Shown: positions 30,001 to 45,000 of the stretch, in pieces
Numbering within the stretch: position 1 is the stretch's first letter
How the letters are laid out: the number at the start of each line of letters is the position of its first letter
Source of the DNA: Bacteriovoracaceae bacterium
Lineage (GTDB): Bacteria > Bdellovibrionota > Bacteriovoracia > Bacteriovoracales > Bacteriovoracaceae
Direction of reading: 5' to 3'
Assembly: GCA_048264885.1 (NCBI GenBank)
Contig: JBLXCO010000002.1
Location: 549,040 to 613,039 of the forward strand
Length of the DNA: 64,000 bases
Made by a program: the position numbers

Positions 30001-33000
30001 ATTATCTCGATCTTGTTATTAATGAAATTAAAAGCGGACTGGGACGACTGCCGCGTTTGATCTTTGAGCCCGGCCGCTTCTTAGTCGCGCGCTGTGGAGT
30101 TTTGGTCACTCAGGTTTTAAGAAGAAAAATAACTGGGGGCAATCATTTTCTCATCGTCGATGCTGGCATGAACGATTTTGCTCGCTCAAGCCTTTATGGG
30201 GCCTATCATCACTTACTCGATATATCGGCCAAACAAGAAGCCGCCGCCCCAACACATGTAGTGGGACCCATCTGTGAAACTACCGACTCCTTTGCCAGTG
30301 GCCGCCCGCTCAACGGTGCGATTGGACGTGGAGATTACCTCATTATCTGCGACACCGGCGCTTATGGGGAGAGTATGGCCAATACTTATAATTGTCGCCA
30401 GCTGGTGAAAGGTCACTTCTCAGAGTAAAAAGTTCACGGTGCAATTGTCAGAGAGTTTCTTCCTTCATAAAAAGGGCCACACAATTTATATTTGGGGGAA
30501 TTCATGAAAATGACCGTATTGCTCTTGGCCTTAGTGCTCTCTTGTACTTATTCTAAACACGCTGTCGCCACAGTTTGTCCTAGTGACGCCACTGCTATAG
30601 AGCAGATGATTTCAAGTGCTGATTCCTGTTATATGGCCAGCAAGATTGCTAATGATTGTGCTTGGGGCTCTAGTATTGATGTAAGCTTTGTTGCTGCTGC
30701 TAGTGAGATCTGTCTTAAAAACTATGATCAGTGGAGCACTAAGCATAAGCTGATGTTAGAGGTTCTCAGTGAAGATTGTAATGAAAAGTATGAAGGCCAA
30801 TCAGGCACTCTCTACCTTTCAATGAACGCCTTTTGCATTTTGGGTGCAACTGAAGTTTTGGCCGGACTGAACGAAGAAGTTCTCTAAACTGAACCAAAGA
30901 ATTTAAAAGAAAAAGGAAGTGACTTCACTTCCTTTTTTCTTTTTACTCCTCTTGATCCTCAAGGATCTCGATGAGCCCGCTTTCTCCATCCATTCTAATT
31001 TTCATTCCACTTTTAAGGCGCTTGGTGAGGTCTTTGACTGAAACAATTGTTGGAAGTCCCATCTCGCGCGCCACAATGGCCGAGTGAGAAAGCAGGCCAC
31101 CGCGCTCAACTAAGAGTGCACTGGCCGAAGGGTAGAGGGGAATCCAGCCGGGATCTGTTCGGTGGGTGACGAGTATCTCTCCATTTAAAACCAGATCATC
31201 ATCTGGAGAGAGAATCACTTTGACAACCCCTTCAACGACTCCTGGGCAACAGCCAAGACCGGCCATTTGATTGGGAGCAAGCTTAGATTCATCAATCTTT
31301 TCATGAACTGTTGGGGGAAAGTGTTCGTTTTGATAATAGACAGGTCCTCTGGTCATAAAGCGCGGTGAGGGCTCAAGATCCTCATATTCTTTATACTGGG
31401 CCTTTCTAATTTCAATAATAGGTCTGAGCTCTTGGGTGGTGTTTGTTCCTTCAAAGACACCGTTCATTTCGGCCATGGTGAGATAGAAGATATCTTCAGG
31501 CGTATCGATGATGGCGCGTTTGGTGAAATCCTCACCCATGCCGTAGAACATCGCCCTCACAACACCATAGATTCTAGTGCGACAAAATCGGGTGTTCTCT
31601 CTATTCATCACCGCCTTTCTTGCGTGCTTAAGTGACCAGCGATAGATCATTCCCTTAAGTCCAGAGAGAGTTCTATTAAGCTCGCTCTCAGCGCGCTCTC
31701 TGATTTCACGCTCTCTTTTTTCGTAAATATCTAAGTTGGTTTGACCGGCATTGATAATATTCTTGAGAAAAATGAAGAGTAGCGAGGGATCTTGATGCAG
31801 ATCTTTTTGCTCAAGTTTCATTTCACTCATGCAGCGAAAGCCGTACTTGTCGATATAGCGATCCACTCGCGCGGCAAATTTTTGATATTTTGAAGATTTT
31901 AAGACTTCAAGACAGTTGATATTAGCGGTTTCAAAGAGTAACTCTTTAAGGCCATCGGTGGCGACCACCTCACCGGCCATTCTGATGAGCTCTTTGGTAG
32001 GTTCGGCCGACTCTAAGTTGCCATTGCCTGCGAGCAGGTCATTGTGAAAATTTGCTCCTAGGTGCGCGAGCCATTTTTCGGTGAGTTTTTTAAAGACTCC
32101 AAAGTGAACCATGCAAAGAAAGTCGTTAATAATTGGAGCATGCCACTTCCACAGCATCTCAACTTCGAGCTGGCGGTAGTATTCATAGATTTTGTCACTC
32201 GACATTGAGCTATAGTCGTGGTGTCTAAACTTTTCGTAGGTGGGATGAAATTCGGCCAGAAACTTATCAACGATAGTCTGAATGCGAAAGTGGAAGCTGA
32301 GAAACTTTAGACCAACGAGAAAGCTTCTAAACTTCGCCCCCGGCGTGTTGTGAAAGGTTGGAGGCTTTACACGATCGGCAATTTCTGAGGCTAGAGATTC
32401 ATTTGTTCCCATCATGGTTTCCATAAAACCACGGTTAAATTTATAGCCGGGCAAAATAGAAGTGAGCTTGTACCAGTTAAGAAGATTGTAGTAGACTCGG
32501 CCATAGAAAAGACCCAACATATTTTTTAAGAAGTGATCCATTTGTCTAATGTGCTGATAAGGAACCATCAGCACTTCGCAAAATTGTACATAGACCTGGT
32601 GATAGACATAATGGGCAAAACCAAAAGTTAGCGGCATGGTGAGCCCGCCATAACTCTCAACAATATTTGAATTATCCCACAACCACAATGTTCCAGTGCC
32701 GTTTTTTACGCCAGTGGTGATAGGGCGGCTTTGCAGTAGGTAGATGACCCCATTTTTGATCGCCCACTCAACATCTTGCGGGAAGTGGTAATATTCTTCA
32801 ATGCGAATCCCAAGCTTTCTAAGTTCTCCTAGCTGGTGGTGATTGAGTGAAGATTGATTGACTAACTTTTCTTCGACGTCTACTTCTTTAGTCGTTTCGT
32901 TTTCCGGGTCACTGGTGAGCATTTTACTCTTCTCACTAATATGCTCTTCAACTACCTCAAAAGATTCTTTTTTAATCTTGTAACTATCCCCTTCATAAAG

Positions 33001-42000: not shown

Positions 42001-45000
42001 ATGAACTCGAAGGGGAATTCAGGTGACTAAGAAGTACTTCAATGAACTCAATTACAGTCTTGGAAATGAAGACACGACCTTTGAGTACCTGCTAACAAGA
42101 TCGCTTAGACCTAAAAAGATTCTCTCCATCGCCGGCAGTGGTGGCCGGGCCTTTCCCATGCTTCATGAGGGTGTGAGTGACCTTTATCTGGTTGACGTCA
42201 GTACTGAGCAACTCTATCTCTGTGAGCTTAGAGAGTCGACAATGCGAAGTCTTGGCTTTCAGGACTGGATGCGCTTTTGGGGCTATCCTCCCTACGGCCA
42301 GGGTGATTACTCTCACCGCAGAAAAGAGATCTTTGAGTCGCTAGAGCTCTCAAGTGCCGCGCGAACCTATTTTGTTTCTCTTTTTAATTCTCTTAACTGG
42401 GGCTCAATCCTCTATGAAGGAAAGTGGGAGAAAACCTTCATGGCGCTTAGTAAAGTGCTAAGAACTGTGATGGGTAAAAACTACGATGAGATTTTTAATC
42501 ACTACGACCTTCCTTCTCAGCTTCGTTTTTATGAAAATGATTTCCCGATGAAAACCTGGCGCTTTATTCTCTTTGTGCTAGGAAATAAGGCGGTCTTTAA
42601 TGCCCTTCTTTATAAGGGCGACTTCATTAAGAAGAATTCTCCCGAAACTCATTTTGAATATTATTTTAATGCCTTTGATCGCTTGTTTCGCACACGCCTG
42701 GCGCGTGAGTCCTTCTTTATTCACCTGTGCTTTCACGGTGAGATCAATCATGAAGACGGCAATCCCATTGAAGCGCGTGAGAATGTCTTTAATGAAATGA
42801 AGGCGGCCCTAGGCCACGGTGCTAAGATTCACTATGAAAATCGCGACCTCATTAGCACCACTAATTCTCTCAATGGTGCTGGGCTCGATTTTTTAAGCCT
42901 GAGTGACGTTCCAAGTTACTTTAGTGGAGACCTTGAGCGCGACTTTTTAAGTCTCATCAAGCCCGCACTCTCACCTGGAGCAATCGTAGTGCTGCGCTAC
43001 TATCTTAGAAGTGCTGAAGTCAATGAGAGCGGCTATGAAGATGTGAGCATGAGGTACACGGAAGAGAGCGCCAGAGAGCTCGTTCAGATGTACAATATCC
43101 GCGTGCTTGAATTTCTTGGTTAGTTTTACTTCAGGTACTGAATCAATTCTCCGGCCAGAGAGAGCACCAGGAAAAATCCAGCAATATCTGTAATTGTGGT
43201 GAGAATGGGAGTGGAAGCGAGGGCCGGGTCTAGGTTGGCCTTTCTTAGGACGAGGGGAATGGCACCACCGCACACGGCCCCGATCACATTGTTGATGGCC
43301 ATGGCAACGCCAATCACAGCGCCCAGCCACAAATTGCCTTTCCAGGCCCAAGTAATGGCGGCAAGTAAAATACCGAGCCCTAGCCCAATAGAGATTCCCA
43401 CCATTAATTCTTTTTTAATAACGTGGGCCACATCACCAGGGGTCACTAGACCCAGAGCGAGTTCGCGTATGCTCACAGCAACCGCCTGGCTACCCGAAGA
43501 ACCAGAAAGGGCAGAGACCACTGGCAAGAAGACGGTGAGGGCAATGACTTCTTCTAAGACATCTTGATAAAGAGCAATCACACTGGCCGCGAGAACGTTG
43601 AGAACAATATTAGTAGAGAGCCAGGAAAAGCGACGATAGGATCTCGTCCAGTAGGGCATGGAGCGAATTTCTTCCCCGCCCACAATACCGCTGGACTTCA
43701 TATAGGTTTCAGTTTCTCGCTCACGAAGAGCGTCGCGCACGGCCGCGCCCCTAACAATCCCTTCGAGGCGCCCTTCACTGTCGATGATCGGCACACAGTT
43801 GAGGGTTTCACTATCAAAGAATTCTTCGAGATCTTCCAGGTGGGTGTCTAGGCCAAAAGAGATCACATCGGTGATCATGTAATCGGTGACTAGTTTGTCG
43901 CGAGGGGCGAGTAAGAGTTGGTTGAGTCTGACGACGCCCAAGAGTTTGCGCTCGGAATTGACGACGTAGACGTAACTCACTTCATAGTCAGCGTACTCTT
44001 CACCATTTTCATAGAAGTCTTTAAGGACTTCTTTCACACTCATGTGTTCTTCATATTCAAGATACTCGGTGATCATCAGACCACCGGCGGTATCTTCGCG
44101 GTAGCTCATGAGCTCTCTGACTTCTTGGGCATCCTCCGGGTCCATGTGACCTAGAATCGCCTCGGCGTCTTCAGTGTCGAGTTCAGACAGAAGGTCGGCC
44201 TGATCATCTGAATACATTTCTTCAACGATCTTGGCGGCCATTTGGGGGTCGAGGTCTTCAATGAGGTCGATGGCCTGCTCTGAAGGAGACTCCATCAAAA
44301 TGTCGGCGGCATCTTCGGGATCGAGTAAGAGCATCAGGCGCGATTGAGTTTCTTGATCAAGACGAGAGATCGCGCGCGCAGTTTCGGCCGGGCCAATATC
44401 TTCGAGGTACTGTTCTATGACTTCACGATCCCCACTCTCAAGATATTCCTTGAGTTGGTTCCAGGGGGTCGCCTGAATTCTATTTGCTAAAATTTCGTCG
44501 TTTTCTTTCACGATCGGCCCACTTAAGTCATGTAAAATCATCATCTTATCGATTAATTGAGTGATCGTCTTTAGGAAATAGTGAAAATCAAATCACAGCG
44601 GCCAGACATTCGTAGTTGTGAGCTGAGATCTGCCCTGAGATACGAGCGATGTTATTGACAAAAACTAAACCAGAGCGAAGTACTCTGATGCTTGTAAAAG
44701 GCTAGAGCGTCTCTATCCAATCTAAATTAACTAAAGAGGCGCGGTAAATCGGTGTGGGATACTCAATGGTTTTGCCCTCTTCAACGCTCTTAGAAGTCTT
44801 GGGGTTGATCCATTCAAAGAGAGTTTCCCTCGCAGCATTAATGTGAATGATACCTCCGTACTCGCTGCCAGTTGAGATAAAGAGGGATTGATCGTTGAGA
44901 ACCTGCACACTTCCAAAGGCCCCGGAGCGACTTTCTTGCTCTGGCCCGCGGATGGGCACCAGGTAATTGAGATGAGGTTTTGGAGTCTTTGCTTTCGTAT

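What a model noticed while it worked through the whole genome (the two positions that open the first line are those of the whole stretch)
30943..43123. Reductase-kinase-dikinase-UbiA-BtaA cluster: a likely new route to alkyl (ether) lipids
An eight-gene cluster joins a PEP-utilizer dikinase, a UbiA transferase, a hydrolase-AMP ligase and DUF3419 with an acyl-ACP-reductase-like protein and a lipid kinase; in some relatives an HMG-CoA-reductase-kinase fusion stands in the cluster instead. The cluster would reduce a fatty acyl chain to an alcohol, activate it as a diphosphate, let UbiA transfer the alkyl group and add an aminocarboxypropyl head group. That would be an undescribed bacterial route to ether or other alkylated membrane lipids that mirrors archaeal chemistry.
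Evidence so far: Domains in calls 10 and 34 (g01745 matches the PigE N-terminal part, E 1e-45, and acyl-ACP reductase, E 4e-12). DUF3419 gene in 10 of 15 relatives, beside a g01745 homolog in 5 of 9 loci. Of five longer regions, three hold a 781-910 aa HMGR+kinase fusion next to the PEP-utilizer or UbiA gene. PPDK_N near AMP-binding in 86 of 237 order genomes. Searches 212 and 217 empty; 191 gave one unrelated cluster.
(Added by a program. Inside this text positions count along the whole contig: contig position 549,040 is position 1 of the stretch shown here. "Call 12" and the like, gene names such as g00115 and contig names such as C1 are that model's own, and its searches are not shown. The text may have been shortened before it was handed on; [...] marks where a part breaks off. 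The agent that wrote the report below was given it as the finding of a first reader that could run no searches.)

Follow-up and report, generated by a model that had tools for sequence, protein, structure and literature searches.

The report
Alkyl-phosphate lipid cluster related to salinipostin
Eight adjacent genes, conserved in many predatory bacteria and with relatives in other phyla, share their core kinase and membrane transferase with the gene cluster for the phosphate-ester natural product salinipostin, and likely build an undescribed fatty-alcohol phosphate-ester lipid with a formylated amino-acid head rather than the ether lipid first proposed.

Summary
The cluster is real: eight intact genes in a divergon, conserved in relatives. 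Its UbiA clade is found in 107 of 301 phylum genomes. Three reductase+kinase modules replace one another, and the dikinase has an invariant Arg where rifampin phosphotransferase has a hydrophobic pocket residue. The ether step is doubtful. The dikinase–UbiA pair is homologous to Spt1/Spt7 of the salinipostin phosphotriester cluster (34% identity; shared atypical UbiA motifs). The pair also occurs with AfsA plus a methyltransferase and no fatty-alcohol genes. In three genomes phosphonate genes stand where the reductase+kinase would be, and a C–P bond cannot leave as ether formation requires. So UbiA more likely attacks phosphorus, giving an alkyl phosphodiester or triester. DUF3419 would add homoserine. 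The formyltransferase, strictly alternating with a ceramide-synthase-like GNAT, would N-acylate it. The 'epimerase' is a likely aldehyde reductase. No product or enzyme has been tested; UbiA's acceptor and the hydrolase–AMP ligase remain unexplained. No description was found in ten open-literature searches.

The parts
30943..33645 (-). PEP-utilizer dikinase (RPH/PigC architecture), homolog of salinipostin Spt1; predicted to turn a phosphate monoester (alkyl-P) into a diphosphate
   Evidence: Pfam/NCBIfam; 34% over 885 aa to the Spt1-type protein of L133; catalytic R682/E683/R686/H854 kept; clade-specific R689, K610, E612
33662..34588 (-). Atypical UbiA-fold membrane transferase, homolog of Spt7; motifs LRxYDEIKDxxxD..NPxRPL and FExGRK..YS
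   Evidence: 24% and E 1e-10 to the Spt7-type protein; profile match to Nocardia spt7-like proteins 99%, E 2e-18
34602..37019 (-). Alpha/beta hydrolase (GYSYG) fused to an OleC/PRK09274-like AMP ligase; role unresolved
   Evidence: not an ortholog of the FAAL Spt2; the hydrolase part accompanies 22 of 28 formyltransferase loci and 0 of 37 GNAT loci
37016..37774 (-). Formyltransferase (NIHHGLLP...DAGD motif); predicted N-formylation of the homoserine amine
   Evidence: mutually exclusive with a GNAT family across 98 loci
37775..37925 (.). 151-bp intergenic region between the divergent operons (presumed promoters)
   Evidence: no sigma-70 consensus found
37926..38900 (+). DAGK/YegS-family lipid kinase; predicted fatty-alcohol kinase
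   Evidence: replaced by phytol/dolichol-kinase-like or APH-like kinases in HMGR-type clusters
38897..39958 (+). NAD_binding_4/PRK07201-type SDR; predicted fatty aldehyde-to-alcohol reductase; Spt5 homolog
   Evidence: 28% to the Spt5-type protein
39955..42030 (+). Acyl-ACP-reductase/PigE-N-like thioester reductase (C613 invariant) with an N-terminal domain of unknown function
   Evidence: the N-domain resembles clusters auto-named 'quinate 5-dehydrogenase'
42023..43123 (+). DUF3419, distant BtaA homolog; predicted SAM-dependent 3-amino-3-carboxypropyl (homoserine) transferase
   Evidence: only weak methyltransferase-fold matches; single copy in the genome

Best explanation
The cluster likely makes a fatty-alcohol phosphate-ester lipid: the two reductases would turn an acyl thioester into an alcohol, the lipid kinase would phosphorylate it, the dikinase would raise it to a diphosphate, the UbiA-fold enzyme would pass the alkyl-phospho group onto a hydroxyl, and DUF3419 with the formyltransferase would add an N-formylhomoserine head. 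Phosphate would leave, the C-O-P bond would be kept, and no CDP activation would be needed. The product would be an alkyl phosphodiester or triester, probably exported to the envelope. Shown: genes, domains, co-occurrence, homology to Spt1/Spt5/Spt7, residue patterns. Inferred: every reaction, the acceptor, the product and its location.
For: (1) L133 reproduces the published spt1-9 Pfam order (against passages). Window dikinase 34% over 885 aa, UbiA 24% with the same atypical motifs, SDR 28%. The spt dikinases are sister to the lipid-type ones (FastTree support 0.86), all UbiA-linked ones apart from PigC/RPH (0.93). Salinipostin is a phosphotriester whose fatty-alcohol step is proposed, not shown. 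(2) R689, K610 and E612 are invariant in 55 lipid-type, 10 spt-type and 9 other AfsA-type dikinases and absent from 3 outgroups. R689 aligns with RPH Met673, a hydrophobic pocket residue beside the phosphotransfer residues, which fits an anionic acceptor. (3) The pair occurs with AfsA + ICMT methyltransferase and no AMP ligase or alcohol kinase in 4 loci (L119, L122, L126, L143). (4) In 3 genomes PepM/Ppd(/ADH)+acyltransferase stand where reductase+kinase stand elsewhere (L027+L144, L151, L153); L153 parallels HMGR-kinase locus L147. No full-length AARL or cluster-type HMGR was found in those genomes. (5) Module swaps in 98 loci: AARL 21 vs HMGR 26, both 0; DAGK 25 vs phytol-type kinase 20, both 0; FMT 28 vs GNAT 37, both 0. 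Cluster HMGRs lost Ser684 and Lys735, and one is an AMP-ligase-ACP-HMGR fusion. (6) The GNAT is homologous to the gene between serine palmitoyltransferase and an epimerase in the own genome, the spt-bCerS-cerR arrangement; it is fused to DUF3419 in L110. (7) Chemical precedents: MccD puts acp on a phosphate; pokepola ester is an alkyl phosphate diester of N-acylhomoserine. (8) LolA-like, MacB/FtsX and MMPL genes flank several loci.
Against: No reaction is tested; I saw no assay of Spt1 or Spt7 in the passages read. In salinipostin the diphosphate was made in vitro by Spt6, not Spt1. Seven GBL-producing strains with spt-like clusters gave no detectable phosphotriester. All characterised UbiA enzymes I recall cleave C-O (or transfer ribosyl), none attacks phosphorus, and the best sequence and Foldseek hit is the ether synthase DGGGPS. 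CarS-like genes sit in 4 loci (L028, L077, L147, L153), which suits a glycerophosphate ether. A polyprenyl-synthase-like gene lies next to L126 and two Bacteroidota loci. The phosphonate genomes are only 87-94% complete. The acceptor has no gene. The OleC-like ligase (81 of 98 loci hold an AMP ligase, fused to UbiA in 4) has no place in the scheme. The tree had 3 true outgroups; the HMMs were built from the loci they were counted on, and kin are not independent.
Confidence: 0.45

Rival explanations
1. One reading: alkyl diphosphate is the donor, UbiA cleaves C-O and alkylates a hydroxyl (glycerol phosphate or similar) to give an ether lipid, which DUF3419 and the formyltransferase cap with N-formylhomoserine, an ether analog of a betaine lipid.
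For: UbiA fold with DGGGP synthase as top Foldseek and sequence hit; two-kinase logic; CarS-like genes in 4 loci and an APP1 phosphatase beside L025; a PlsA-like CoA-activase inside the operon of L066; BtaA acts on a glycerolipid hydroxyl; desaturases and P450s in some loci could give an allylic donor.
Against: DGGGPS is tied with ApUbiA by Z, so the fold does not single out ether synthesis. The window cluster has no desaturase, and saturated primary diphosphates are poor SN1 donors (established chemistry, recalled). The same pair sits in a phosphotriester cluster without an alcohol kinase and in phosphonate clusters without reductase.
Confidence: 0.25
2. The chemistry is phosphoester chemistry as above, but the product is a secreted specialised metabolite (a lipase/serine-hydrolase inhibitor or signal, possibly a cyclic phosphate or a beta-lactone made by the OleC-like ligase), not a membrane lipid.
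For: Salinipostin relatives are such inhibitors. OleC-like ligase plus formyltransferase recalls lipstatin biosynthesis (recalled). Patchy distribution: 107 of 301 phylum genomes.
Against: Conservation across a whole family (54 of 78) and links to LolA-like/MacB/MMPL transport, ceramide-synthase-like GNAT, PS decarboxylase and CarS-like genes point to envelope lipid; no AfsA, NDK or OleA in the cluster.
Confidence: 0.15
3. The dikinase phosphorylates a neutral hydroxyl as rifampin phosphotransferase does, the lipid kinase acts on a later glycerolipid, and no alkyl diphosphate is formed.
For: RPH is the closest solved relative and phosphorylates a hydroxyl; spt clusters have no other alcohol kinase.
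Against: Extra invariant basic residues in the acceptor site; in AfsA/ICMT clusters the only evident substrate is already a phosphate ester; every DUF3419-type module brings its own alcohol-type kinase (20 of 21 AARL loci, 20 of 26 HMGR loci).
Confidence: 0.1
4. The cluster is a variant mevalonate/prenylation pathway that makes an isoprenoid-linked compound.
For: HMG-CoA-reductase homologs, phytol-kinase-like and UbiA genes in many relatives.
Against: HMG-carboxylate ligands Ser684 and Lys735 are not kept in 13 aligned cluster HMGRs; an A-ACP-HMGR fusion exists; in the window an acyl-ACP-reductase-like protein takes its place.
Confidence: 0.05

Closest known systems
Salinipostin (spt1-9) phosphotriester cluster of Salinispora and spt-like clusters of Nocardia and others (bioRxiv 2020.10.11.335315; PMC8209734)
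   Same: Homologous dikinase (Spt1), UbiA with the same atypical motifs (Spt7), NAD_binding_4 reductase (Spt5); fatty-alcohol logic.
   Different: No AfsA (Spt9), NDK (Spt6), nucleotidyltransferase (Spt3), ACP (Spt4) or FAAL (Spt2); instead AAR-like reductase, DAGK, DUF3419, formyltransferase, hydrolase-OleC-like ligase. None of 17 spt-type loci holds DUF3419, FMT or the GNAT.
Archaeal ether lipid pathway (DGGGP synthase, CarS)
   Same: UbiA fold; first Asp-rich motif partly kept; CarS-like genes in 4 related loci.
   Different: Second motif is FExGRK; no GGGP synthase or prenyl synthase in the cluster; donor would be fatty-acyl-derived.
BtaA/BtaB betaine lipid (DGTS) pathway
   Same: DUF3419 family over cut-off; shared YxxxxED, Gly-rich and D..Q motifs.
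   Different: 15% identity to btaA/btaB-linked proteins; no BtaB; formyltransferase or GNAT instead.
Rifampin phosphotransferase / PigC-RedH condensing enzymes
   Same: Domain order and catalytic Arg-Glu-x-x-Lys/Arg and His.
   Different: Met673 site is an invariant Arg; further clade-specific K/E/N residues.
OleABCD olefin and lipstatin-type beta-lactone clusters
   Same: OleC-family AMP ligase next to a hydrolase and an SDR.
   Different: Scores below OleC cut-offs, no OleA; the genome has a separate complete ole cluster.
Pokepola ester (sponge metabolite, PMC4999901)
   Same: Alkyl phosphate diester of N-acylhomoserine, the kind of structure predicted here.
   Different: No gene cluster known to me; no link to these organisms shown.

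Membership tests
Salinipostin (spt) cluster | Spt1 dikinase (PF01326+PF00391) | tested here: met
Salinipostin (spt) cluster | Spt7 UbiA (PF01040) of this clade | tested here: met
Salinipostin (spt) cluster | Spt5 NAD_binding_4 reductase | tested here: met
   (28%; homology, orthology not shown)
Salinipostin (spt) cluster | Spt9 AfsA and Spt6 NDK-like kinase (in all 91 published spt-like clusters) | tested here: not met
   not in the cluster; no hit to my AfsA or NDK profiles in the own genome
Salinipostin (spt) cluster | Spt2 FAAL with Spt4 ACP and Spt3 nucleotidyltransferase | tested here: not met
   ligase is OleC-like, weak match to Spt2-type; genes are contiguous with no room for an ACP
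Archaeal DGGGP (ether) synthase | UbiA intramembrane prenyltransferase fold | tested here: met
Archaeal DGGGP (ether) synthase | Closer to DGGGPS than to other UbiA members | tested here: inconclusive
   first by Foldseek and sequence, tied with ApUbiA by Z, 13-17% identity
Archaeal DGGGP (ether) synthase | Canonical second Asp-rich motif (recalled as DxxxD) | tested here: not met
   FExGRK..E..Y
Archaeal DGGGP (ether) synthase | C-O cleavage of an allylic diphosphate forming a glycerol ether | not testable with these tools
   needs an enzyme assay
BtaA/BtaB betaine lipid pathway | DUF3419 domain over the Pfam cut-off | tested here: met
   98 bits vs 28.2; BtaA = DUF3419
BtaA/BtaB betaine lipid pathway | Adjacent BtaB N-methyltransferase | tested here: not met
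   absent from the cluster; present beside the reference proteins
BtaA/BtaB betaine lipid pathway | Grouping with bona fide BtaA | tested here: inconclusive
   15% identity, long branches, only two references
BtaA/BtaB betaine lipid pathway | acp transfer to diacylglycerol | not testable with these tools
   needs an assay
Rifampin phosphotransferase / PigC | ATP-grasp + substrate + His swivel domains with catalytic R/E/K and His | tested here: met
Rifampin phosphotransferase / PigC | Score over family cut-off and hydrophobic acceptor pocket | tested here: not met
   below RPH, PigC, RedH cut-offs; Met673 site is Arg
OleABCD | OleA thiolase plus OleC over cut-off | tested here: not met
   no OleA in the cluster; OleC models 211/207 bits vs 430/405 for the genome's separate ole cluster, itself below cut-off
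Acyl-ACP reductase / PigE N-domain | Rossmann motif and the active-site Cys region (role of the Cys recalled) | tested here: met
   GATGSIG and invariant C613 in 9 of 9; score below the AAR cut-off

The most novel reading that the evidence does not exclude
A dikinase plus a UbiA-fold enzyme form a general, CDP-free phosphoester-forming module (activate a phosphate or phosphonate as a P-O-P anhydride, then transfer it to an alcohol). Salinipostin-type, AfsA-methyltransferase, phosphonolipid and this cluster all use it, and here it builds a glycerol-free membrane lipid, such as a dialkyl phosphate ester of N-formylhomoserine, in predatory bacteria and many other phyla.
Probability: 0.25. Interest if true: 0.9.

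Novelty: new variant of a known kind. Interest (0 to 1): 0.72.

Why it matters
If right, it adds a new reaction type to the UbiA superfamily and a new route to phosphoester lipids in about a third of sampled Bdellovibrionota and in Bacteroidota, Planctomycetota and others. It would assign testable roles to the unassigned salinipostin enzymes Spt1 and Spt7, point to candidate clusters for methyl-phosphotriester metabolites and for phosphonolipids, and repurpose HMG-CoA-reductase homologs as acyl reductases. Even the ether rival would be an undescribed pathway. Bdellovibrio bacteriovorus carries the cluster, so a deletion plus lipidomics can decide it.

Tried and rejected
Literature: ten searches of the open library gave no description of this cluster and no assay of Spt1/Spt7; subscription papers are not covered. 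An early note that the G015 phosphonate cluster lacks the dikinase was wrong: it lies just past the first locus end. Prodigiosin/tambjamine-like reading rejected: no aminotransferase or pyrrole genes, dikinase below PigC/RedH cut-offs and outside the PigC branch. OleBCD reading rejected. Mevalonate reading rejected. The DUF3419 model (pLDDT 88) gave no Foldseek match at E<=0.001, only weak methyltransferase rows. No sigma-70 promoter consensus in the divergent gap. No RNA holder was listed; this says nothing on expression. The UbiA alignment was too divergent for a pattern scan, so the GTDB scan used the dikinase and covered 12 of 64 parts, best 80 of 599 kept. Three word searches of earlier findings were empty. 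No complex prediction was run.

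
Full report
Observation. The eight ORFs are intact at 30943-43123 as a divergon: dikinase, UbiA, hydrolase-AMP ligase and formyltransferase on the minus strand; DAGK, SDR, AAR-like and DUF3419 on the plus strand. GC is like the flanks. Best hits suggest a Bacteriovoracaceae genome (inference). The UbiA assignment is secure by predicted structure (pLDDT 90).

Distribution. 16 of 41 relatives (own genome included) match the UbiA protein; the clade profile finds 107 of 301 phylum genomes. 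A GTDB scan with the dikinase alignment covered 12 of 64 parts and kept the best 80 of 599 loci. They come from Bdellovibrionota, Bacteroidota, Planctomycetota, Actinomycetota and others. With 16 relative loci and 2 plasmid loci this gave 98 loci, scored with profiles built from the same set. Counts: dikinase 96, UbiA 94, AMP ligase 81, DUF3419 58. Many loci are truncated and kin are not independent, so these are patterns, not statistics.

Front end. Two reductase types never co-occur (AAR-like 21, HMGR-like 26), nor do DAGK (25) and a phytol/dolichol-kinase-like protein (20; family named from recalled motifs, no Pfam hit). AAR-like goes with DAGK in 20 of 21 loci. HMGR goes with the phytol-type or a fused APH-like kinase in 20 of 26. 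In 13 aligned cluster HMGRs Ser684 is an invariant Glu and Lys735, which binds the HMG carboxylate (PMC9500038, one passage), is not kept. L060 is an AMP ligase-ACP-HMGR fusion. I infer that all these modules deliver an alkyl phosphate. The window SDR scores best against PRK07201 and thioester-reductase models and fits the aldehyde-to-alcohol step.

The salinipostin link. Seventeen of the 80 loci hold dikinase, SDR or NTase, an NDK-like kinase, AfsA and a UbiA. Passages of bioRxiv 2020.10.11.335315 (introduction and passages) and PMC8209734 (passages) give the spt Pfam set: Spt1 PF00391/PF01326, Spt2 PF00501, Spt4 ACP, Spt5 PF07993, Spt6 NDK, Spt7 PF01040, Spt8 PF00296, Spt9 AfsA. Locus L133 has exactly this order. 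Window versus L133: dikinase 34% over 885 aa, UbiA 24% (E 1e-10) with the same odd motifs, SDR 28%; the AMP ligases are only distantly related. In a tree of 84 sequences (101 thinned by dropping 17 near-duplicate loci) the spt dikinases are sister to the lipid-type ones (0.86) within a UbiA-linked clade (0.93), with PigC and RPH as the only outgroups. The paper shows Spt9 and Spt6 reactions and only proposes the rest; figures and bioRxiv supplements, which may name roles for Spt1/Spt7, could not be seen. PMC11877004 (passages) found no phosphotriesters in seven GBL-producing strains with spt-like clusters, which tells against easy generalisation.

What the dikinase acts on. R689, K610 and E612 are invariant in 55 lipid-type, 10 spt-type and 9 other AfsA-linked sequences and absent from RPH and two PigC. 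R689 aligns with RPH Met673, which lines the rifampin pocket near Arg666/Glu667/Lys670 (PMC4844700, passages). This fits an anionic acceptor; spatial position was not computed. A further class has AfsA, an ICMT-family methyltransferase, dikinase and UbiA but no AMP ligase or alcohol kinase (L119, L122, L126, L143), so the pair can work on a phosphate ester without any fatty alcohol. L126 also has a polyprenyl-synthase-like gene, which cuts the other way.

Which bond UbiA makes. In three genomes PEP mutase, phosphonopyruvate decarboxylase (and an Fe-ADH in two) with an acyltransferase stand beside dikinase and UbiA, with no reductase or alcohol kinase in the locus: L027+L144 and L151 (with DUF3419, GNAT and PS decarboxylase), and L153. 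L153 shares dikinase, short UbiA-like protein, CarS-like gene and methyltransferase with L147, which has an HMGR-kinase instead. No full-length AAR-like or cluster-type HMGR was found in these 87-94% complete genomes. Only 1 of 24 PepM-positive genomes had PepM beside a UbiA hit, so the variant is rare. If a phosphonate replaces the alkyl phosphate, the transfer must be at phosphorus. The alternative, a phosphonate acting as acceptor of an alkyl group made elsewhere, is not excluded. Against attack at phosphorus: no UbiA member known to me does it, DGGGPS is the best sequence hit, and CarS-like genes occur in four loci.

Head group. DUF3419 is the BtaA family (PMC6642084, passages), but the window protein is 15% identical to two btaA/btaB-linked proteins and lacks BtaB. 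51 of 58 DUF3419 loci have the formyltransferase or the GNAT, never both; L110 fuses DUF3419 and GNAT. The GNAT is homologous (hhalign 99.9%) to the gene between serine palmitoyltransferase and an epimerase in the own genome, the arrangement described for bCerS (PMC11334938, passages); that this gene is bCerS is inferred. acp transfer to a phosphate has precedent in MccD (PMC10491745, passages), and pokepola ester is an alkyl phosphate diester of N-acylhomoserine (PMC4999901, passages). Neither shows anything about this cluster.

Unexplained. The acceptor of UbiA; the OleC-like ligase (fused to UbiA in 4 loci) and its hydrolase, which tracks the formyltransferase (22 of 28 versus 0 of 37); the N-domain of the AAR-like protein.

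Verdict. Observation confirmed; interpretation partly supported. Best model, alkyl phosphoester lipid with N-formylhomoserine, 0.45; ether lipid 0.25; secreted metabolite 0.15; others 0.15. Not a member of the spt, BtaAB, Ole or archaeal ether systems; it works most like the spt core. Three earlier scan notes saw related clusters with ether or isoprenoid readings; their shown text does not mention the salinipostin or phosphonate links. Other papers were seen only as search listings, apart from passages of PMC7923214 and the Lipocone preprint, which did not bear on the cluster.

Noticed in passing
L143 (Streptomyces clavuligerus plasmid) 7024-13702; L119, L122, L126: AfsA + ICMT-family methyltransferase + dikinase + UbiA clusters; candidates for a methyl-phosphotriester (cyclophostin-like) or other butenolide-derived metabolite; the 2020 paper says the cyclophostin genes were not identified.
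   Followed up: partly
L027 8355-18555 + L144 104-4901; L151 795-14788; L153 3797-13936: Phosphonate versions of the cluster (PepM, Ppd, ADH, acyltransferase, PS decarboxylase or CarS-like); candidates for phosphonolipid synthesis in Bdellovibrionota.
   Followed up: partly
L060 4879-7890; L057 1-1395: AMP ligase-ACP-HMG-CoA-reductase-like fusion: a carboxylic-acid-reductase-like architecture with an HMGR fold as reductase.
   Followed up: partly
L146 5897-9235 (G000:C6 about 161900-165200): Own genome has serine palmitoyltransferase-like, GNAT and epimerase genes in a row, the bacterial ceramide arrangement.
   Followed up: partly
L145 5488-10004 (G000:C2 about 139500-144000): Own genome has a separate complete oleABCD-like cluster.
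   Followed up: partly
L066 3022-7344: A 1441-aa CoA-activase/DUF2229 protein (PlsA/Ger-like, name recalled) lies inside the operon of an Omnitrophota locus.
   Followed up: no
L147 5470-14400 and L153 5495-6169: A short (about 190 aa) UbiA-like family accompanies a divergent dikinase, CarS-like gene and methyltransferase.
   Followed up: partly
L120, L124, L125: Micromonosporaceae clusters with dikinase, UbiA, AfsA, KAS III, ACP and ketosynthase; product unknown.
   Followed up: no
L029 14765-16081; L030 4932-6251: A 439-aa protein without Pfam or NCBIfam match lies between DUF3419 and the GNAT; the phytol-kinase-like profile hits both loci.
   Followed up: no
window 23307-28455: One trypsin-like and two subtilase protease genes upstream; a subtilase and TPMT gene flank the cluster in several relatives.
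   Followed up: no
L020 9498-10343 (G014): The UbiA match in G014 was reported with two TAA stops inside; the ORF is shorter at its C-terminus.
   Followed up: no
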